Made by a program: the position numbers and the translations under genes. The notes beneath the pieces are model-generated. The model had not been told where the DNA came from, ran no database searches, and worked only from the letters and a program-made list of their open reading frames with translations. Below are positions 844 through 62,560 of a stretch of 64,000 nt of DNA, piece by piece. Origin of the DNA: Candidatus Phycocordibacter aenigmaticus (lineage in GTDB: Bacteria; Patescibacteriota; Minisyncoccia; Phycocordibacterales; Phycocordibacteraceae); the NCBI GenBank assembly GCA_045401115.1, contig CP174359.1, forward strand, positions 213,691 to 277,690, in the 5' to 3' direction. The stretch's first letter is position 1. The number at the start of each line of letters is the position of its first letter.

Positions 844-1035
844 TATATGTTTCATTTCCATCACGTGTACAGCGGGTGTTTCTAGGTACTGATTTTCAGA
901 AAAAGTAAGGAAATAAGCCGTATGTACTGGAGTGCCTGCTGCTGTATTCGTGATATATGGAATTATCATTATTTAGTGTTAGACGTCTGCACTATACCGC
1001 TGCGGTGCATTTGTATCAAATCCAGTGAATTATAT

Positions 1036-1066
1036 AAAAAATCCCGTTTTAAAACGGGATTTTTTA
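1036..1066. terminator. bidirectional rho-independent terminator (hairpin ATCCCGTTTTAAAACGGGAT flanked by A and T runs)
   Basis: Perfect hairpin between rny and clpP with A-tract on one side and T-tract on the other. Confidence 0.6.
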
Positions 1067-1078
1067 TCAATAGCATAA

Positions 1079-4592: not shown

Positions 4593-4699
4593 AAAGTGTT
4601 AGTGAAAGAATGAGTAATTATTATTGATATAACAGTACCGCTTCACGGTACCAGTCATAGATTCATTATATAGGCTATTCTTTCTTTGTAGAGTATCTT

Positions 4700-4737
4700 C
4701 CACATAAAAACCCTGCAGCTGCAGGGTTTTTATGTGG
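4700..4737. terminator. 38-nt perfect palindrome acting as a bidirectional terminator
   Basis: CCACATAAAAACCCTGCAG|CTGCAGGGTTTTTATGTGG lies between the convergent ends of nusA and the coiled-coil gene. Confidence 0.55.
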
Positions 4738-4769
4738 AGTACTATCTCCCGTTAACTGGATGAACTTCG

Positions 4770-23434: not shown

Positions 23435-24172
23435 TTATTGCTTAGAGCGCCATTCGTAAAAGGCAATAGCTGCCGAAGTGCCGGCGTTAAGTGATTCAGC
23501 GTTCTCACTAATAGGAATGCGCAGTACCGCATCACAGTGCTCACTGGTTTTTGCACGAATGCCTTGCGCTTCATTTCCAACAATAAATACTGAGTTACCG
23601 GTAAAATCTTCATCGCGGATAGTACGCGCGCCGTCCCCTGCAAGGCCATATACCCAGAAGCGTTTGTCTTTGAGCTCTCGCACTGTTTGATTTACATTGC
23701 CGATGGCAATAAGAGGAATACGAAAAGCGGTCCCTACTGAGGCCTTTATCACCGAACTAGTTATTTGTGCTTGTCGGTCTTTAGGAATAAGCACACCATG
23801 CATACCGAAGGCAGCAGCTGAGCGAATAATAGAGCCAACGTTTTGTGGATCTTGTACTTCACCAAGGAGTACAAGTCCAACGCCTTTTTCTTGAGCAAGT
23901 GTTTCCTCAAGAGAGGGGAGGTCGGTCATAAGTTCGTCGAGATTCACGAGTGCTGCCACGTGTTGATGTACTGCTTCGTCGCCAATACGTTTTGAGATTT
24001 TCTGCTCATCAAACCGCTCTCTAAAAATACCCTTATTTTTAGCGCGCGAATCAAGTTCCGGATATTGTAGGGGGTCAAGGAATACTTTTTCCACTACGTC
24101 AGGCCGATACGAGAGTGCTTCTGCGACTGGGTGTTTCCCATAGATGTATATTTTATTCATTGTTCTTGACAT
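23435..24172 (-). CDS. rlmB: SpoU/TrmH-family RNA 2'-O-methyltransferase (RlmB-like)
   Basis: 245 aa with an N-terminal SpoU_sub_bind-like region and SPOUT motifs LLGEVQDPQNVGSIIRSA, VFIVGNEAQG and LNAGTSAAIAFYE. Confidence 0.8.
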   Translation of the reverse strand: MSRTMNKIYIYGKHPVAEALSYRPDVVEKVFLDPLQYPELDSRAKNKGIFRERFDEQKISKRIGDEAVHQHVAALVNLDELMTDLPSLEETLAQEKGVGLVLLGEVQDPQNVGSIIRSAAAFGMHGVLIPKDRQAQITSSVIKASVGTAFRIPLIAIGNVNQTVRELKDKRFWVYGLAGDGARTIRDEDFTGNSVFIVGNEAQGIRAKTSEHCDAVLRIPISENAESLNAGTSAAIAFYEWRSKQ

Positions 24173-24229
24173 TACACCAAAACTCAGTATTTTAAAAGCT
24201 TTCTACCTACCATATACCCCCAACATCAT

Positions 24230-24251
24230 GGTCAACACCTGGGTGTTGACC
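24230..24251. repeat. REP-like palindrome GGTCAACACCTGGGTGTTGACC (third copy of the core flanking the RAYT gene)
   Basis: Same core as the palindromes at 33847-33886 and 34656-34689. Confidence 0.7.
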
Positions 24252-24257
24252 AGACAT

Positions 24258-24284
24258 AAACGGCTCATCCCAATGAGCCGTTTA
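24258..24284. terminator. hairpin AAACGGCTCATCCCAATGAGCCGTTTA (member of a repeated hairpin family)
   Basis: Near-identical hairpins with a GGCTCA/TGAGCC stem also occur at about 51933 and 57064. Confidence 0.5.
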
Positions 24285-24351: not shown

Positions 24352-25008
24352 GTGCGTTATACTAGGTGCATGTCTCCGGAAATTGCACTTATTGCCATTG
24401 TTATTGTCATTCTCTCCATTATTTTCCATGAAGTGGCACATGGTTATATTGCCAACATGCTTGGTGATCCGACGGCACGTCTGCAGGGACGGCTTACCCT
24501 AAACCCTATTCCACACATTGACCCGGTTGGCTCTGTGCTGATTCCCGGTATTCTTCTACTTTCCGGCACCCCGTTCCTTATCGGGTGGGCAAAACCGGTG
24601 CCATATAACCCCTATAACCTCCGCTATGGTAAGTGGGGTGAAACGCTCGTATCCGCAGCGGGCCCTGCAGTGAATATCCTTATCGCTGCATTGTTTGCGC
24701 TTCTTATTCGTCTTGATCTCATCACTTCACCTGTCTTCTTTCAAGTAGCGGTATTGGCTATTTTTGCTAATATTGCGCTTGCTATCATTAACCTTATTCC
24801 TATCCCACCGCTTGATGGTTCAAAAATTCTCCGCGCGGTGTTGCCGAGTCAAGCTGCGCTTTCATACGCACGTCTAGAGCAAATGACCTACGCGTTGGGT
24901 CCATTTGGTCTGATCGGTATTCTCCTTCTTCTTGTTTTTGTGTTCAGCGACGCGGTGTTTGCGTTAGTACGCGGTATATTCACCCTATTAACAGGGGTGT
25001 CACTTTAG
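24352..25008 (+). CDS. site-2 protease family (peptidase M50) membrane metalloprotease
   Basis: HEVAHGY zinc motif within a TM helix, with a polytopic S2P-like layout. Confidence 0.75.
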   Translation: MRYTRCMSPEIALIAIVIVILSIIFHEVAHGYIANMLGDPTARLQGRLTLNPIPHIDPVGSVLIPGILLLSGTPFLIGWAKPVPYNPYNLRYGKWGETLVSAAGPAVNILIAALFALLIRLDLITSPVFFQVAVLAIFANIALAIINLIPIPPLDGSKILRAVLPSQAALSYARLEQMTYALGPFGLIGILLLLVFVFSDAVFALVRGIFTLLTGVSL

Positions 25009-32396: not shown

Positions 32397-33260
32397 ATGG
32401 CAACAAAAAGTAAAACAAAAAACAGTAAACCAACGTCACCGGGCGTACGCGGTACCCGTACCGTGCGTTATAAAAATACGTTGACTGCGTCAAAGCCACT
32501 TAAGTCGCTGGTAAAAGGTGCGCGGAAAAATGCGGGCCGCAACAGTGCTGGGAGAATCACTGTACGTCACAAAGGTGGTGGTCATAAACGTAAACTTCGT
32601 GCAATCGATTTTCTTTTCATAGATAAAATTGGTATTCCTGGACGTGTTGAAACAGTCGAGTATGATCCACATCGTAGTGGTTTTATCGCCCGCATTGTTT
32701 ATAAAGACGGTGAACGTCGCTACATTCTTGCGCCGCAATCTATTGAAGTAGGAGCTACTGTTATTACCGCTGAAGATGCTCCTGTGAAGCCGGGTAACCG
32801 CCTCCCTCTCTCAAGTATCCCCGTGGGTACCTATGTATACAATATTGAACTTAAAGAGCGTGGTGGCGCAAAACTCGCGCGTTCAGCAGGTATGTATGCA
32901 GAACTTGTTGCGCTCGATGGTGGATATGCACAGCTGAAGATGCCGTCTTCTGAAATTCGTCGTGTGCCAGCGAAGGCATGGGCTTCAGTTGGCGAAGTAT
33001 CAAACCCTGAGCACCGATTACGTAACCTTGGTAAAGCTGGTCGTTCACGTCACCTCGGCATCCGCCCTACTGTGCGTGGTAGCGCTATGAACGCCGTTGA
33101 TCACCCACACGGTGGTGGTGAAGGAAAACAAGGTCGTGGTCACAGACGACAGCGCACCAAATGGGGTAAACCGTCAGGCAAAGGTCAAAAGACACGTACA
33201 CCAAAGAAATACTCAAACATCCACATTGTGTCTCGTCGCAAAGTCGGCAAACGCCGCTAA
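32397..33260 (+). CDS. rplB: 50S ribosomal protein L2
   Basis: 287 aa with KPTSPGVRG and the C-terminal block [33 protein letters not shown]. Confidence 0.95.
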   Translation: [287 protein letters not shown]

Positions 33261-33267
33261 CATCTTC

Positions 33268-33295
33268 AAAACACCCCTTCAACAGGGGTGTTTTT
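33268..33295 (+). terminator. rho-independent terminator after rplB
   Basis: Hairpin CACCCCTTCAACAGGGGTG followed by a T5 run. Confidence 0.6.
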
Positions 33296-33296
33296 C

Positions 33297-33555
33297 TTGA
33301 CATCCTCGATTTAGAGGCGTAGTTTGATTAAATACCTTAGTACACTTGGCTTCCTCGAACATTGGGGGACCTGAATGTGCTCCAGGTATTTAGAAAGCTA
33401 AAAACCAAATTTATGGGCATGGAATCTGAGCCTTTGGTAGGACCTTTCAGTGGTCCTAAGGCAACTAATATGACGCTCTGCGCTTCACATTTACGACCAA
33501 TACCATGTGAGTATTGTGAATAAATATTAAAAACCCGCTCTCAAGCGGGTTTTTA
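33297..33555 (+). other. mini transcription unit 1: TTGACA promoter-like hexamer, conserved ~55-nt leader, 36-codon ORF (33413-33523), terminator CCCGCTCTCAAGCGGG followed by T-run
   Basis: Tandem paralogue of unit 2. The small ORF encodes MGMESEPLVGPFSGPKATNMTLCASHLRPIPCEYCE. Confidence 0.4.
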
Positions 33556-33571
33556 ACTGCCTATGTATTAG

Positions 33572-33837
33572 TTGACATGTTTAATAAAATAATGTATTTT
33601 CCTTCAATACCTTTGATACACTTGGTTTTCTCGAACTGCTTGGGAGATCTGAATGTGTTTAAGGTGACTTACAAAAATAGATACGCATACGATTATGTCT
33701 GAACGACTTTCAAAAGGAGTGAATGATTCTCCTTCTTTCCTGCCTTTCTGGTGTGAACAATGTAGCGAATGGCACAGTGGCGGCCCTTGTAACTAATCAA
33801 GACACTTTTTTAAAACCCGCTCTCAAGCGGGTTTTTT
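33572..33837 (+). other. mini transcription unit 2: TTGACA promoter-like hexamer, conserved ~55-nt leader, 33-codon ORF (33695-33796), identical terminator
   Basis: The leader is about 80% identical to that of unit 1 over 55 nt. The small ORF encodes MSERLSKGVNDSPSFLPFWCEQCSEWHSGGPCN. Confidence 0.4.
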
Positions 33838-33846
33838 CTTACCCCC

Positions 33847-33886
33847 ATCCCTCTTGGTCAACACCCGGGTGTTGACCAAGAGGGAT
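33847..33886. repeat. REP palindrome ATCCCTCTTGGTCAACACCCGGGTGTTGACCAAGAGGGAT (40 nt, perfect)
   Basis: Flanks the 3' side of the RAYT gene. The core is shared with the copies at 34656 and 24230. Confidence 0.75.
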
Positions 33887-33950
33887 AATCTACCTTTTTC
33901 CTAGTGGACTGACATGGCTGATACGTAACCAACTGATCAAAAATCTCTTT

Positions 33951-34631
33951 TTATAACTTCGGTAGTTCATCAAGCTCTTCTTCCAGTATCTTCGCGGTTG
34001 AGGTTTCCACAAAGTCTCGGTAGTTTGAATCCGGCTCTTGTTCGAACTGCGCGGCGATGATATCGGCCTCAAGCAGGCCGCCCCAGCGGTTTGCCTCGGT
34101 AATATCCTGCAAGGAAGACCACGGGTAGTCAAAAATCTTATCTTTCCAGGTCTTCAATTCCCGTGGATTCCGATGAATATAGGCGGAAAGGTAGAGTAAG
34201 TAGTTATTGTCCGCAATATGTTTTGCTTGGAACGCGTTTTGAAATATTCTCCCCGAAGCCTCGTATTTAGTATTAAAGTACTTTGTGTAGCCGTTTCCTA
34301 CGCGTTGCATATAGCGCGCGATACCGCCCTCAACCACTTCTTTTACTATCAAATGGTAGTGGTTTGGCATAATACAGAAACTCGTCAGCTCAACCGAGCG
34401 GTTCACAATGACATCATTAGTCTCTTCAGGAGACACAGTGAACCCGTCTGAAGTGGAAAATGACTCAGTGAGCCTAGTGATATGGCTAAAGGGGATAGGT
34501 GACTGCGCATACAGCATATAGAAAAGAAACCGTGCGTAGTCTTTGTGCTCTTTAAAAAGTGTCTGCTTAAAAGCCCCGCGATTGTAAATGTGGTAGTACT
34601 CTCCTGGCGCTATGGTGCGTTGAGCCGTCAT
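33951..34631 (-). mobile_element. IS200/IS605-family Y1 (HUH) transposase of the REP-associated (RAYT) type
   Basis: Motifs GEYYHIYNRG, HUH motif MPNHYHLIV, and C-terminal NYLLYLSAYIHRNP carrying the catalytic-Tyr region. The track start at 34685 is a TTG inside the palindrome, so the ATG at 34631 is preferred. Confidence 0.75.
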
Positions 34632-34655
34632 CCACTCCAATCTATTGTATTCTGT

Positions 34656-34689
34656 CCCTTTGGTCAACACCCGGGTGTTGACCAAAGGG
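34656..34689. repeat. REP palindrome CCCTTTGGTCAACACCCGGGTGTTGACCAAAGGG (34 nt, perfect)
   Basis: Flanks the 5' side of the RAYT gene, in inverted arrangement relative to the copy at 33847. Confidence 0.75.
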
Positions 34690-34810
34690 GGTTGACGGTA
34701 GGGAGGGCGTTTGCTATTCTTGCTGCAAGCTCGAAAGGGTTCGTGATTTAACGTATTTCTTTATAAGGATTGCGTTCACGAGCCCTTTTTATTCGGGTGG
34801 TCACCTATCT

Positions 34811-35134
34811 ATGGCACGATCAATTAAAAAAGGACCCTACATCTTTTATAAACTTCTCAAGAAAATTGAGGGTAAAACTCCTGAAGAAGCAGGAACTATT
34901 AAGACGTGGGCTCGTGCCTCACAAATCAGTCCGGAAATGGTGGGATACACATTTGGGGTACACACTGGCCGGGACTTTACTGACGTATTCGTTACCGAAG
35001 AAATGGTAGGTCACCGACTCGGGGAGTTCGCTCCCACAAAGAAATTCCTCCGTCATGGTGGTCAAATGCAGAAGGCCCTCGACCAGAAGAAGAAAGAAGC
35101 AGAAATTACTGCTGCTAAAGCTGCTAAAGCCTAA
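34811..35134 (+). CDS. rpsS: 30S ribosomal protein S19
   Basis: Starts MARSIKKGPY, contains GHRLGEFAPT, and has a K/A-rich C-terminal extension. Confidence 0.9.
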   Translation: MARSIKKGPYIFYKLLKKIEGKTPEEAGTIKTWARASQISPEMVGYTFGVHTGRDFTDVFVTEEMVGHRLGEFAPTKKFLRHGGQMQKALDQKKKEAEITAAKAAKA

Positions 35135-51815: not shown

Positions 51816-51930
51816 AGCTATATGAGAGTAGTGTACGTATTTTTTAGCCTTTTTGCAAGGGGCACCGGCGAGAAAAAGGTTATTTTACGCTTTAAATATG
51901 CTGTCGCCTTTATACCACCTCCATAAAAAT

Positions 51931-51962
51931 AAACGGCTCACCCCGGTGAGCCGTTTAGCAAA
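51931..51962 (-). terminator. hairpin AAACGGCTCACCCCGGTGAGCCGTTTAG (repeated hairpin family) downstream of the DUF4389 gene
   Basis: Same GGCTCA/TGAGCC stem as the hairpins at 24258 and 57064. Confidence 0.5.
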
Positions 51963-52365: not shown

Positions 52366-53033
52366 ATAGGGGCATTATAGCAGGGGAGGGAGAGCTCAAA
52401 GTAAAAATCTCAAGGACCGACCTTGAGATTTTTATTCGTTTTTCAACCACATCCGCCACCTCAAATGTTTTTTGGGTAATTTTTATTGTTAGGCTGAGTT
52501 TTTTGAAACTTGGTTCCATTCTCGCTCTTGTCGTCGTCGGTCGCGTTTTGGTGCACTCCATGGCGCTCTTTCGATTTTAGCTGCCTGGAGAATTGCACGC
52601 ACAATTGCGTGTAAGCCTTTAAAACTTACTCTGAAAGGTGTAAGAATCGCTTCACTATGAGAAGACGGGTGTGATAAGTGGTGTTTTTCTTTAATAGACA
52701 TAATTCAGTTTAAATATATTAAGTTACTCTTTAATGAGGATAATGTAACAATCTTATATTTTTGTCAAATATGGGGCGTGTATATATTTTATACACCTTC
52801 GGCGTAAAAAAGTATGGGCACCGCTGGACGCGGCTCGGCTTTTCATTTTCACCAGCAACTCAGCGAAAATGAAATATGCCTGCGACATTGTTTTGTTATG
52901 ATCGAAGGGAATTAGAAAACAAGAAGTGCCCTTGTGGTGCGCCGGTTCGTTACCCACGAAAGCAAAGCAGTTTGCTTTCTCTCACCTCCTCAATAAGAAA
53001 AACCGCCTGCCAGGCGGTTTCATTGGTGGAGGT

Positions 53034-53417
53034 GGGGGGTAACGAACCCCCGTCCAAAAAATTTCTTGCATTATGACTCTACAAAACATAGTTCGCTTTC
53101 AAAGGTTTAAATATCGTGTGTATAAAGCGAACCAAATCGCACGGTATCGAGTTCTTAATTTTCGAGAAAGAGGCGAACAATTTCTTTCCGTATCCTGATG
53201 AATATAACACCACCGTTCCCGTATCAGGAGTCAAAGAAGGTGATGTCACTTAGGCCGTAGCGTAAGCGAACTGGAAGTCCTTAGCAGTAAAGTAAGGGCT
53301 TACAGCATTTTTTACAGCGTTTGCACGTTGTAGTTACTCGAGGTTTTAGGTGTTCTCCAGTATTCACCGTTTTGCACATAATGTTTCCATTTCTTGTCGA
53401 AACGTAAGTCACCCCCC
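53034..53417 (-). ncRNA. ssrA: tmRNA (transfer-messenger RNA)
   Basis: The minus-strand 5' end GGGGGUGACUUACGUUUCGACAAG pairs with the 3' end GGACGGGGGUUCGUUACCCCCCACCUCCACCA to form a tRNA-like acceptor and T-arm. An internal tag frame ends FAYATA-UAA. It sits beside smpB and is followed by the terminator hairpin at 53008-53031. Confidence 0.8.
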
Positions 53418-56814: not shown

Positions 56815-56888
56815 CCACCCGTAGCTCAGTTGGTAGTAGCACCGAGCTTATATCTCGGCGGTCCCTGGTTCGAGTCCAGGCGGGTGGA
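56815..56888 (+). tRNA. tRNA-Ile, anticodon UAU (AUA-decoding), no encoded CCA
   Basis: Cloverleaf with acceptor CCACCCG/CGGGTGG, U8 and A9, anticodon stem CCGAG/CTCGG, loop CTTATAT, T-arm CCTGG-TTCGAGT-CCAGG and discriminator A. Confidence 0.65.
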
Positions 56889-57062: not shown

Positions 57063-57156
57063 ATAAACGGCTCAATCCATTGAGCCGTTTATTTCATCCT
57101 AAAACACTATGGTATAACGTAGTGTTTTAGGAATATAAAGGACAGTCCTTTATATT

Positions 57157-62470: not shown

Positions 62471-62560
62471 GGAGAGTTGGCTGAGTGGTCGAAAGCGCAT
62501 CCCTGCTAAGGATGTAGGGGGGAAACCCCCTCGAGGGTTCGAATCCCTCACTCTCCGCCA
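62471..62560 (+). tRNA. tRNA-Ser, anticodon GCU, long variable arm, CCA encoded
   Basis: Acceptor GGAGAGT/ACTCTCC, anticodon stem CATCC/GGATG with loop CTGCTAA, variable-arm hairpin TAGGGGGGAAACCCCCTC and T-arm GAGGG-TTCGAAT-CCCTC. Confidence 0.8.

What the first reader, a model, noticed from the sequence alone, without database searches (positions are those of the whole stretch)
33847..34689. REP-flanked IS200-like Y1 transposase (REPtron-like unit) inserted between rplB and rpsS, splitting the S10/spc ribosomal operon
The minus-strand ORF carries Y1/HUH transposase hallmarks: YHIYNRG, MPNHYHLIV and the C-terminal YIHRNP region. It is bracketed by two perfect palindromes with the core TTGGTCAACACCCGGGTGTTGACCAA, at 33847-33886 and 34656-34689. 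A third copy of the core lies at 24230-24251, in the rlmB/M50-protease spacer. This REP-plus-RAYT arrangement is best known from proteobacteria. Here it sits inside what is usually an uninterrupted operon, since rplB and rpsS are normally adjacent. rplB now ends with its own terminator, so rpsS to secY must be expressed from elsewhere or by read-through. The track start codon (TTG, giving MVNTRVLTKG) is simply the palindrome translated, so the ATG at 34631 is the likelier start.
Basis: partly seen in the sequence, partly recalled or inferred. Interest (0 to 1): 0.7.

Follow-up and report, generated by a model that had tools for sequence, protein, structure and literature searches.

The report
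Old transposase-like gene splitting ribosomal operon
A transposase-like gene bracketed by two perfect DNA palindromes sits between ribosomal genes rplB and rpsS, but it is a long-standing, fast-changing resident of that spot in many ultra-small Parcubacteria rather than a recent jump.

Summary
A 226-aa Y1/HUH gene (33951-34631, minus strand) lies between two perfect palindromes with the core TGGTCAACACCCGGGTGTTGACCA, and a diverged third copy lies at 24229-24252.

The protein belongs to the REP-associated (RAYT/TnpA_REP) class. It has the HUH motif and the Y---NP motif, and its best fold match is E. coli TnpA_REP bound to a REP hairpin.

The "insertion" reading needs correcting. In about 35 distinct relatives (53-77% protein identity) the same gene occupies the same rplB|rpsS gap, in either orientation. 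Each has its own perfectly complementary palindrome. The 24-nt core ends 5-7 nt from the -35 box of a dedicated rpsS promoter, which is followed by a conserved leader.

Some close relatives lack the gene but keep the split operon, the promoter and the leader. In the closest relative the gene is a mosaic: the N-terminal 140 codons and the palindrome differ strongly, while the C-terminus is nearly identical. Variable cargo sits on the rplB side.

Palindrome copies are few, so this is not a classical REP population.

Verdict: a new variant of a known kind, namely a locus-bound RAYT-like cassette in Parcubacteria. Any regulatory role is only inferred.

The parts
32397..33260 (+). rplB (ribosomal protein L2), the last gene of the upstream half of the split operon
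   Evidence: Pfam Ribosomal_L2_N and Ribosomal_L2_C, E 1e-29 and 1e-49
33268..33294 (+). Terminator-like hairpin with a T-run after rplB
   Evidence: Hairpin with 11-nt arms, AAAACACCCC...GGGGTGTTTT followed by TCTT. The terminator scan also finds it.
33297..33556 (+). Variable cargo, tandem unit 1: promoter-like TTGACA, a conserved 55-nt 5' hairpin, a small ORF (33413-33523, ending PCEYCE) and a terminator (33527-33556)
   Evidence: Alignment of the two units, 76% identity. Consensus fold with 2 compensatory changes in the 5' hairpin. The unit-1 leader is 90% identical in the closest relative, L094.
33572..33838 (+). Variable cargo, tandem unit 2: TTGACA-17-TATTTT promoter-like site, the same 5' hairpin, a small ORF (33695-33796, CEQC...PCN) and the same terminator (33809-33836)
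   Evidence: Promoter scan, alignment, repeat family D2
33847..33886 (.). Distal palindrome on the 3' side of the Y1 gene: ATCCCTCTTGGTCAACACCCGGGTGTTGACCAAGAGGGAT, 20-nt arms, no loop
33951..34631 (-). Y1/HUH gene of the RAYT (TnpA_REP) class, 226 aa; HUH = H91/H93, catalytic Tyr = Y151 in YIHRNP
   Evidence: Pfam Y1_Tnp 31.7 bits. NCBIfam REP_Tyr_transpos 40 bits, below its cut-off of 80. AF2 model pLDDT 85. Best PDB fold match 4ER8, TnpA_REP with a REP hairpin, E 4e-6. Catalytic residues are invariant in 28 homologues.
34639..34667 (-). Promoter-like site for the Y1 gene: TTGACC (inside the palindrome arm), 17 nt, TAGATT. The -10 box ends 7 nt before the ATG.
   Evidence: Consensus scan only. 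In relatives a -10-like box, often TGn-extended, lies 7-10 nt beyond the palindrome core.
34656..34689 (.). Proximal palindrome between the divergent Y1 and rpsS promoters: CCCTTTGGTCAACACCCGGGTGTTGACCAAAGGG, 17-nt arms, no loop
   Evidence: The equivalent palindrome is present in 27 of 32 distinct relatives when anchored on the promoter alone.
34692..34720 (+). Dedicated promoter of the rpsS-side operon: TTGACG, 17 nt, TATTCT with TG before it. It starts 7 nt after the 24-nt palindrome core.
   Evidence: Promoter scan. TTGAC(G/A)-N16-18-TAnnnT is conserved upstream of rpsS in 32 of 34 distinct loci. The core-to-(-35) spacing is 7 nt in 19 loci, 6 nt in 5, 5 nt in 1 and 17 nt in 1.
34721..34810 (+). 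rpsS leader with a terminator-like hairpin (AAAGGGUUCGUGA...UCACGAGCCCUUU) followed by UUUUUAUUCGGGUG
   Evidence: MFE -33.3 kcal/mol, z = -5.3. The motif AAGCKCG...CGMGCYC-TTTTT is conserved in relatives, including those without the Y1 gene.
34811..35134 (+). rpsS (ribosomal protein S19), first gene of the downstream half
   Evidence: Pfam Ribosomal_S19, E 7e-30
24229..24252 (.). Solitary, slightly diverged copy of the palindrome core (TGGTCAACACCTGGGTGTTGACCA) in the spacer between divergent ORFs 23435-24172 (-) and 24352-25008 (+). Similarity extends into the C-rich 5' flank.
   Evidence: (3 mismatches, 0 expected), repeat family D4 (83% over 36 nt), ORF context

Best explanation
This is a RAYT-class (TnpA_REP-like) single-strand-DNA HUH/Tyr endonuclease gene together with its cognate hairpin-forming palindromes. 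The cassette is a long-standing, locus-bound resident of the rplB|rpsS gap in a large group of Parcubacteria/Paceibacteria (Kaiserbacteria-related and others). It is not a recent IS200-type insertion.

In this lineage the S10/spc cluster is split into two transcription units. rplB ends at a terminator. The rpsS-side genes are driven by their own sigma-70-type promoter (34692-34720) and a conserved leader.

By analogy with E. coli TnpA_REP, the enzyme most likely binds the palindrome when it is extruded as a single-stranded hairpin or cruciform, then cuts and rejoins DNA next to it (inferred). That activity would account for four things:
- the occasional extra copies: one in this window, tandem copies in the closest relative, and in-frame copies inside the gene in the sister clade;
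- the occurrence of the cassette in both orientations;
- the replacement of the N-terminal (hairpin-recognition) half of the gene together with the palindrome in the closest relative;
- the variable cargo on the rplB side.

The palindrome overlaps the cassette's own promoter region and ends at a fixed 5-7 nt from the -35 of the rpsS promoter. It is therefore probably also a cis-acting element for one or both promoters, as an operator, an insulator or a supercoil-driven cruciform (inferred, lower confidence).
For: Identity of the protein:
- Pfam Y1_Tnp is above its gathering score.
- HUH (H91, H93) and Y151 in YIHRNP are invariant in 28 homologues.
- Y---NP is the signature of class 2 (TnpA_REP) proteins according to PMC6006769.
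- The best fold match is 4ER8, TnpA_REP bound to a REP hairpin (E 4e-6, TM 0.70 on the target), ahead of the IS608/ISDra2 transposases.

Association with the palindromes:
- In both the ribosomal-operon clade and the sister clade the gene is flanked by a hairpin with an invariant TG...CA foot and a 10-bp stem that differs between genomes.
- In 23 loopless palindromes from the ribosomal-operon clade, 230 of 230 cells are Watson-Crick pairs, 8 of 10 pairs covary on both sides, and there are no G-T wobbles.
- Anchored only on the rpsS promoter, 27 of 32 loci have arms of at least 10 nt, while shuffles never reach 10.

Locus-bound residency:
- Every homologue with about 55% identity or more and enough flanking DNA lies beside L2 and/or S19.
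- These homologues form one clade, separate from those found elsewhere in genomes.
- Y1 and S19+L22 distances correlate (Mantel r = 0.54, 0 of 2000 permutations).
- At least 19 of 44 L2-ascertained relatives with contigs of 10 kb or more share a contig length with a Y1 hit.

Promoter and leader.

Dynamics:
- Both orientations occur (26 antisense, 8 sense). At least 4-6 orientation changes are needed on a concatenated tree.
- The closest relative is a mosaic: codons 141-226 have 84 of 86 identical residues, while codons 1-140 have dN 0.39 and saturated dS. Its palindrome differs at two compensated stem positions.
- The cargo varies from 0 to 3.3 kb.
Against: - No biochemical or expression data exist. 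Cleavage, hairpin binding and promoter use are all inferred.
- Dispersed copies are very few: one diverged copy in 64 kb and none in the flanks of relatives. The defining REP population is therefore not shown, and the source genome was not in the genome collection, so a genome-wide count was impossible.
- The protein scores below the NCBIfam REP_Tyr_transpos cut-off (40 against 80 bits).
- The palindromes are perfect and loopless, and no conserved GTAG-like 5' tetranucleotide was seen. This differs from classical REPs and would equally suit a double-stranded operator for a dimeric protein.
- Relatives L091, L097 and L093 lack the gene and the palindrome yet keep the split operon, promoter and leader. 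The cassette is therefore dispensable for rpsS expression.
- Co-divergence with host genes is only moderate. The nearest Y1 neighbour is among the 3 nearest by S19+L22 in 11 of 28 loci. Horizontal exchange or re-insertion at the same site contributes, and 'one ancient insertion plus inversions' is not proven.
Confidence: 0.72

Rival explanations
1. A recent, autonomous IS200/IS605-type or REPtron insertion specific to this genome has just broken an otherwise continuous S10/spc operon.
For: The Y1_Tnp domain and the flanking inverted structures resemble an insertion sequence. rplB and rpsS are adjacent in most bacteria (general knowledge).
Against: - The same gene lies in the same gap in about 35 distinct relatives, down to 53% identity.
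- A conserved rpsS promoter and leader exist, even in relatives that lack the gene.
- The window holds one copy only.
- The protein is 226 aa with the class-2 Y---NP motif and a conserved C-terminal extension. Its fold is closer to TnpA_REP than to the IS200/IS608 transposases.
Confidence: 0.03
2. The cassette is a mobile element with strong target-site specificity. It has entered the hairpin-plus-promoter junction upstream of rpsS repeatedly and independently, in either orientation, and moves between Parcubacteria by horizontal transfer. It was not inherited from one ancient insertion.
For: - Both orientations are interspersed on the tree.
- Co-divergence with S19+L22 is only moderate (r = 0.54; nearest-neighbour agreement 11 of 28).
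- Close relatives lack it.
- The N-terminal 140 codons and the palindrome of the closest relative are far more diverged (saturated dS) than the neighbouring genes (dS 0.3-0.5).
- Relatives without it carry a terminator hairpin at exactly the position the palindrome occupies.
Against: - The ribosomal-operon homologues form one clade.
- The Mantel correlation is significant.
- The C-terminal third of the gene in the closest relative is co-linear and near-identical, which fits allelic recombination within a resident gene rather than a fresh insertion.
- No second copies or empty-site/filled-site pairs with target duplications were seen.
Confidence: 0.17
3. The palindromes are host cis-elements unrelated to the enzyme's chemistry. 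They would be bidirectional terminators or insulators, or the double-stranded operator of a dimeric regulator that controls the rpsS promoter, and the Y1 gene is merely a neighbour.
For: - The spacing between the palindrome core and the -35 is fixed at 5-7 nt.
- Pairing is strictly Watson-Crick with no wobble, as expected for a double-stranded symmetric site.
- Relatives without the gene have a terminator hairpin at the same place.
Against: - Hairpins of the same family (TG...CA foot, 10-bp stem) flank homologues in the sister clade, which sit in unrelated neighbourhoods with no ribosomal genes.
- There they even occur inside the gene.
- The palindromes lack the A- and T-runs of the window's real terminators.
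- Palindrome and gene are lost together.
- Palindrome sequence and the N-terminal half of the protein change together in the closest relative.
Confidence: 0.06
4. The segment between the two palindromes is a programmed invertible switch (phase variation). Flipping within populations would change antisense or read-through transcription across the operon junction.
For: The two palindromes are inverted repeats of each other (31 nt, 94%). Both orientations exist among lineages, with the outer flanks preserved.
Against: No pair of near-identical loci with opposite orientation was found among about 45 ribosomal-operon loci. Many antisense loci have lost the distal palindrome, which would block further inversion. 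No dedicated invertase is present.
Confidence: 0.02

Closest known systems
RAYT / TnpA_REP (REP-associated tyrosine transposases; class 2 of the TnpA_Y1 superfamily, Quentin et al. 2018, PMC6006769; structure 4ER8)
   Same: - HUH motif plus a single catalytic Tyr in a Y---NP motif.
- Best fold match.
- One copy per genome stretch examined.
- The gene is bracketed by hairpin-forming palindromes (REPtron layout). In the sister clade these are in inverted orientation to each other.
- Hairpin sequences are lineage-specific and co-vary with the protein.
- Persistence within lineages.
   Different: - Found in Parcubacteria (CPR); the papers found did not cover this group.
- Fixed position inside the ribosomal-protein gene cluster.
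- The palindromes are perfect and loopless with a CCGG/CCCGGG centre and a TG...CA foot. No conserved GTAG-like 5' guide tetranucleotide was seen.
- Almost no dispersed copies instead of tens to hundreds.
- A conserved roughly 60-aa C-terminal extension.
- Below the NCBIfam equivalog cut-off.
IS200/IS605 family transposase TnpA (IS608, ISDra2, IS200)
   Same: Same HUH/Y1 fold and Pfam family. These enzymes also recognise DNA hairpins near the element ends and act on single-stranded DNA.
   Different: - IS200-type proteins are about 130-150 aa and lack the NP of the Y---NP motif.
- They occur as multiple near-identical copies.
- Their left-end and right-end hairpins are different and imperfect.
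- They are not syntenic across distant relatives.
- Here there is a single copy, 226 aa, syntenic, and the fold match is weaker (E about 1e-3 against 4e-6).
[quoted passage not shown] 2018)
   Same: A class-2 Y1 protein with an extra C-terminal region and with inverted repeats at both ends of the gene.
   Different: TIRYT repeats have the consensus GGGG[AT][CG]A[CG] and are not hairpins, and the proteins carry DnaA_C/HTH domains (PMC6006769). Here each end is itself a hairpin palindrome, and no HTH domain was detected by Pfam.

Membership tests
RAYT / TnpA_REP (class 2 TnpA_Y1) | HUH motif and catalytic Tyr in a Y---NP motif | tested here: met
   NHYHL (H91, H93) and YIHRNP (Y151, N155, P156) are invariant or nearly so in 28 homologues. 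The signature is taken from PMC6006769.
RAYT / TnpA_REP (class 2 TnpA_Y1) | Fold closest to TnpA_REP | tested here: met
   AF2 model pLDDT 85. The top Foldseek PDB hit is 4ER8, E 4e-6, with 178 aligned columns.
RAYT / TnpA_REP (class 2 TnpA_Y1) | Gene flanked by its cognate REP hairpins (REPtron arrangement) | tested here: met
   Palindromes at 33847-33886 and 34656-34689. The same arrangement occurs in relatives of both clades.
RAYT / TnpA_REP (class 2 TnpA_Y1) | REP sequences dispersed through the genome in many copies (REP/REPIN population) | tested here: inconclusive
   One solitary diverged copy in the 64-kb window and none in the 8-10 kb flanks of relatives. The source genome is absent from the genome collection, so no genome-wide count was possible.
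RAYT / TnpA_REP (class 2 TnpA_Y1) | REP = conserved 5' guide tetranucleotide (GTAG-like) plus an imperfect short hairpin | tested here: not met
   The hairpins are perfect palindromes, loopless or with a 3-nt loop. The only invariant bases are the TG...CA foot, and the aligned flanks show no conserved 5' tetranucleotide.
RAYT / TnpA_REP (class 2 TnpA_Y1) | Single copy, mainly vertical inheritance | tested here: inconclusive
   One copy in the window. The gene is syntenic in about 35 relatives and the Mantel r is 0.54. Mosaicism and losses, however, show exchange.
RAYT / TnpA_REP (class 2 TnpA_Y1) | Score above the NCBIfam NF047646 (REP_Tyr_transpos equivalog) cut-off | tested here: not met
   40 bits against a cut-off of 80
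RAYT / TnpA_REP (class 2 TnpA_Y1) | Sequence-specific binding and cleavage of single-stranded REP DNA | not testable with these tools
   Needs purified protein and oligonucleotide assays
IS200/IS605 insertion sequence | Multiple near-identical copies and patchy, non-syntenic distribution | tested here: not met
   Single copy in the window; same locus across distant relatives
IS200/IS605 insertion sequence | Short TnpA (about 130-150 aa) with distinct imperfect left-end and right-end hairpins | tested here: not met
   The protein is 226 aa with a conserved C-terminal extension. Both ends carry the same perfect palindrome. Fold hits to IS608/ISDra2 are weaker than to TnpA_REP.
TIRYT (subclass 2.1) | Flanking terminal inverted repeats with the GGGG[AT][CG]A[CG] consensus and a C-terminal HTH/DnaA_C domain | tested here: not met
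   The flanks are hairpin palindromes with TG...CA feet. Pfam finds only Y1_Tnp.

The most novel reading that the evidence does not exclude
The palindrome and its HUH protein have been co-opted as a control device for ribosomal-protein synthesis. The perfect palindrome is held 5-7 nt from the -35 of the rpsS-spc promoter and overlaps the enzyme's own divergent promoter. It would extrude as a cruciform under transcription- or replication-driven supercoiling and be bound, or nicked and resealed, by the Y1 protein. That would couple DNA topology or replication state to expression of about 20 ribosomal genes in these ultra-small cells. It would give a RAYT-type protein a concrete host function.
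Probability: 0.12. Interest if true: 0.8.

Novelty: new variant of a known kind. Interest (0 to 1): 0.58.

Why it matters
What RAYT-type domesticated transposases do for their hosts is unresolved (my own knowledge of the field; the papers opened here do not settle it). Published surveys centre on proteobacteria with large REP populations. This family persists in genomes of about 0.7 Mb with almost no dispersed repeats, always at one address inside the most conserved gene cluster of the cell, and abutting a promoter at fixed spacing. That separates the persistence of the enzyme-plus-hairpin pair from the proliferation of repeats. It also offers a compact natural system, with one gene and one or two hairpins, for asking what the pair does.

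There are practical consequences too. The rplB-rpsS junction in these Parcubacteria is a variable islet: the cassette lies in either orientation, alongside toxin-antitoxin-like genes, large surface proteins or small peptide genes. This matters for operon-based marker concatenation, for binning and assembly checks, and for annotation, where the gene is currently labelled simply 'transposase'.

Tried and rejected
- **Genome-wide palindrome count.** I scanned the genome collection for GGTCAACACCYGGGTGTTGACC. It returned only a chance hit in Pseudomonas psychrophila.
- **Rfam.** At gathering thresholds the window holds only a tmRNA and two tRNAs. A permissive scan of 33200-34900 gave only sub-threshold terminator-like hits. 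No known RNA family explains the palindromes, the tandem units or the rpsS leader.
- **PDB by sequence.** The single sequence found nothing relevant. The profile gave only weak hits to ISDra2 (E 0.0097) and 4ER8 (E 0.061). A fold search was needed to place the protein.
- **PADLOC.** No defence-system match for the Y1 protein.
- **Literature.** Four searches found no paper on RAYTs in CPR/Patescibacteria or on a transposase between rplB and rpsS. This covers only the held library.
- **Ordinary terminators.** Considered and rejected. The palindromes lack flanking A/T runs, unlike the window's real terminators, and they travel with the gene in unrelated contexts.
- **Counting inversions.** I first read the 4-6 orientation changes on the tree as in-situ inversions. 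The mosaic gene in the closest relative and the moderate co-divergence show that allele exchange could spread an orientation. That number is therefore an upper bound on true inversion events.
- **A standard -35/-10 promoter for the Y1 gene in all relatives.** Only some loci fit. Many instead show a TGn-extended -10 box, so this is left as inference.
Full report
**1. The observation**

The sequence is as described. Perfect, loopless palindromes lie at 33847-33886 (20-nt arms) and 34656-34689 (17-nt arms). The 26-nt core TTGGTCAACACCCGGGTGTTGACCAA occurs exactly twice, and once more with three mismatches at 24228-24253. No match was found in 100 shuffles of the window.

Between the two palindromes, on the minus strand, is an ORF with YHIYNRG, MPNHYHLIV and YIHRNP. 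Its neighbours are rplB (32397-33260) and rpsS (34811-35134).

The real start is the ATG at 34631. Homologues begin at the same M-T-x-x-R. The NCBI protein from this genome, 'Patescibacteria group bacterium UBA2163' on a 721-kb contig, is 226 aa and identical to the query.

**2. What the protein is**

- It passes the Pfam Y1_Tnp gathering score (31.7 bits against 23).
- It hits NCBIfam REP_Tyr_transpos at 40 bits, below the equivalog cut-off of 80.
- In an alignment of 28 homologues the HUH histidines (H91, H93) and Y151 of YIHRNP are invariant. A roughly 60-aa C-terminal extension (NRWGGL...SNYxDFVKTSTAK) is also highly conserved.
- Y---NP is the signature of class 2 (TnpA_REP/RAYT) proteins in the survey of Quentin et al. 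2018 (PMC6006769).
- An AlphaFold model (pLDDT 85) matches best the E. coli REP-associated tyrosine transposase bound to a REP hairpin (4ER8, E 4e-6, TM 0.70 on the target). The IS608, ISDra2 and IS200 transposases come next, at about 1e-3.
- There is no hit to defence-system models.
- The window holds only one copy.

**3. It is not a recent insertion**

Look-ups of homologues at 77%, 73% and 65% identity all showed the gene between rplB and rpsS, antisense to the operon. Homologues at 54-57% identity are also there, but in the sense orientation, with 1-3 kb of extra genes on the rplB side.

A metagenome scan returned 80 loci, which I compared with the window's L2, S19 and L22 proteins:
- Every locus whose Y1 protein is about 55% or more identical, and which has flanking DNA, carries L2 and/or S19 next to it. 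That is about 35 distinct loci.
- The 44 loci at 50-55% identity have no ribosomal genes nearby and sit in various housekeeping neighbourhoods.

On a neighbour-joining tree the two sets form separate clades. Names attached to members include Parcubacteria, Paceibacterota and Kaiserbacteria.

**4. Every cassette has its own perfect palindrome**

In nearly all relatives of both clades the gene is flanked by a hairpin with an invariant TG...CA foot. The 10-bp stem differs from genome to genome but stays perfectly complementary.
- In the ribosomal-operon clade it is loopless around a CCGG, CCCGGG or CTAG centre.
- In the sister clade it has a 3-nt CGA/TCG loop, and the two flanking copies are often in inverted orientation.

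On 23 loopless palindromes from the ribosomal-operon clade, all 230 cells are Watson-Crick pairs. Eight of ten pairs change on both sides, and there is not one G-T wobble. Those sequences were picked as palindromes, so I repeated the test anchored only on the rpsS promoter pattern. There, 27 of 32 distinct loci have perfect arms of at least 10 nt just upstream, while shuffles never reach 10.

The absence of wobble pairs argues for a constraint at the DNA level: hairpins on both strands, a cruciform, or a symmetric duplex site. An RNA structure would tolerate wobbles.

**5. How rpsS is expressed**

Directly after the proximal palindrome lies TTGACG, 17 nt, then TATTCT (34692-34720). The same TTGAC(G/A)-N16-18-TAnnnT pattern is found upstream of rpsS in 32 of 34 distinct loci.

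The 24-nt palindrome core ends 7 nt before the -35 in 19 loci, 6 nt in 5, 5 nt in 1 and 17 nt in 1. The leader behind the promoter, by contrast, varies from 9 to 115 nt.

The leader carries a conserved terminator-like hairpin plus a T-run. In the window the MFE is -33.3 kcal/mol with z = -5.3.

On the other strand the scan finds TTGACC-17-TAGATT for the Y1 gene, with the -35 inside the palindrome arm and the -10 ending 7 nt before the ATG. Relatives often have a TGn-extended -10 box 7-10 nt beyond the core. In the sister clade the hairpin fills the -35-plus-spacer position of a TATAAT promoter.

These are consensus matches, not shown function.

**6. The cassette is dynamic**

*Orientation.* Of 34 distinct loci, 26 are antisense and 8 sense. 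On a concatenated Y1+S19+L22 tree at least 5 changes are needed, with a bootstrap range of 4-6. The rpsS-side palindrome and promoter junction is the same in both arrangements. In antisense loci the distal palindrome is often lost.

*Loss.* Relatives ascertained through L2 rather than Y1 include some without the gene.
- L091 and L097 carry a FAD-monooxygenase/Pol-beta nucleotidyltransferase gene and a HepT-like gene instead.
- L093 carries a 93-aa ORF.
- All three keep the split operon, the promoter and the leader, with an ordinary terminator hairpin where the palindrome would be.

As a lower bound on prevalence, at least 19 of 44 L2 relatives with contigs of 10 kb or more share a contig length with a listed Y1 hit.

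*Mosaicism.* In the closest relative (L094), L2 is 98% identical (dS 0.47). Codons 141-226 of Y1 are 84 of 86 identical (dN 0.015). Codons 1-140 have dN 0.39 with saturated dS. The upstream palindrome is TGGTCAAAGCCCGGGCTTTGACCA, two compensated stem changes away from the window's. Two REP-like hairpins lie in tandem beyond the 3' end. The simplest reading is replacement of the hairpin-recognition half of the gene together with its palindrome.

*Co-divergence with host genes.* It is significant but moderate. The Mantel r is 0.54 (0 of 2000 permutations), and nearest neighbours agree in 11 of 28 loci.

*Cargo.* Content between rplB and the cassette ranges from nothing to 3.3 kb. It includes 1000-aa proteins with only a faint PKD_4 Pfam hit, a weakly ATP-grasp-like protein and small membrane proteins. 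In this window it is two tandem roughly 270-bp units, each with a promoter-like site, a conserved 5' hairpin, a small Cys-ending ORF and a shared terminator.

**7. Are there dispersed copies?**

Hardly any.
- The window has one solitary, slightly diverged copy at 24229-24252. It lies in the spacer between two divergent ORFs, and its similarity extends into a C-rich flank.
- No extra copies occur in the 8-10 kb flanks of any relative.
- In the sister clade, however, a copy lies inside the gene itself, in frame (…FVQSRAL…).
- The genome-wide count could not be made, because the source genome is not in the searchable genome collection.

**8. Most likely mechanism**

*Shown:*
- a RAYT-class HUH/Tyr protein with intact catalytic residues;
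- hairpin palindromes that co-vary with it;
- a fixed address in the rplB|rpsS gap across many lineages;
- a dedicated, conserved rpsS promoter and leader;
- both orientations, loss, mosaic exchange and adjacent variable cargo.

*Inferred:*
- The enzyme binds the palindrome in single-stranded or cruciform form and cuts and rejoins next to it, as E. coli TnpA_REP does with REPs.
- That chemistry, or recombination between the palindromes, underlies the rare extra copies, the orientation changes and the cargo turnover.
- The palindrome also acts in cis on the two promoters it touches. The cassette is dispensable for rpsS expression, so any such role is modulatory.

The main rival is recurrent site-specific re-insertion with horizontal transfer, rather than one ancient insertion. 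The present data do not exclude it, and both processes may operate.

**9. Comparison with what is known, and verdict**

It works like, and folds like, a RAYT/TnpA_REP in a REPtron layout. It fails or leaves open several family criteria:
- no demonstrated REP population;
- no GTAG-type guide;
- perfect rather than imperfect hairpins;
- a score below the NCBIfam equivalog cut-off.

It is not an IS200/IS605 element: it is a single copy, longer, syntenic, and a weaker fold match. It is not a TIRYT either, since it has hairpins rather than GGGG-type terminal repeats and no HTH domain.

I found no paper describing RAYTs in CPR bacteria or a Y1 gene at this operon junction, within the limits of the held library.

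I rate it a new variant of a known kind and of moderate-to-good interest. The family assignment is essentially right. The 'insertion that splits the operon' is an old, lineage-wide and still-changing arrangement, not an event in this genome.

Noticed in passing
window 33297-33556 and 33572-33838: Two tandem units of about 270 bp (76% identical). Each has a TTGACA-17-TAnTTT promoter-like site, a conserved roughly 55-nt 5' hairpin (two compensatory changes between the copies), a small ORF ending in Cys motifs (33413-33523 ...PCEYCE; 33695-33796 ...CEQC..PCN) and the same terminator. The 5' hairpin recurs in the closest relative (L094 3973-4033, 90%). A relative's small ORF at this site also ends in CPTCE (L002 5747-5932). 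They could be small RNAs or small-peptide genes.
   Followed up: partly
window 24257-24284, 51930-51957, 57064-57091: A second palindrome family, TAAACGGCTCA-N6-TGAGCCGTTTA, with three exact-arm copies (0 expected by chance) and no T-run after the stem. The first copy directly abuts the solitary copy of the Y1-associated palindrome.
   Followed up: partly
window 34721-34810; relatives L005, L006, L011-L013, L017, L021, L091, L093: The conserved rpsS leader begins AAGC(T/G)CG and forms a terminator-like hairpin followed by TTTTT(ATTCGGGTG) just before the start codon. It is present even where the Y1 cassette is absent. It looks like an attenuator or ribosomal-protein leader and matches no Rfam family.
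   Followed up: partly
L060, L064, L068, L070, L071, L076, L079, L082, L087, L089 (about 170 nt into the Y1 ORF): In the sister clade, which is not linked to the ribosomal operon, a copy of the gene's own flanking hairpin lies inside the coding sequence and is translated in frame (e.g. FVQSRAL). The upstream hairpin occupies the -35-plus-spacer position of a TATAAT promoter.
   Followed up: partly
L094 4550-5428 compared with window 33812-34684: In the closest relative the Y1 gene is a mosaic. The C-terminal 86 codons are nearly identical, while the N-terminal 140 codons are highly diverged with saturated synonymous change. The 5' palindrome differs by two compensated stem positions. Two REP-like hairpins lie in tandem 3' of the gene.
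   Followed up: yes
L091 4500-6873; L097 2359-4519: Close relatives (L2 81-84% identical) carry a FAD-binding monooxygenase fused to a Pol-beta-type nucleotidyltransferase, plus a HepT-like RNase (a toxin-antitoxin-like pair), in the rplB|rpsS gap instead of the Y1 cassette.
   Followed up: partly
L007 1783-4926; L020 894-3914; L009 2301-4922; L006 3981-4934: Other cargo at the same gap: 870-1050-aa repeat-rich proteins that appear to be secreted, with only a faint PKD_4 Pfam hit, and a 317-aa protein with weak ATP-grasp (MvdD-like) similarity.
   Followed up: partly
window 53024-53416 (-), 56815-56888 (+), 62471-62557 (+): A tmRNA gene and two tRNA genes, found by Rfam at gathering thresholds.
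   Followed up: no
window 1034-1067 and 4699-4738: Two other long, loopless perfect palindromes (17-nt and 20-nt arms). They are flanked by A- and T-runs, look like bidirectional terminators, and are unrelated in sequence to the Y1-associated family.
   Followed up: no
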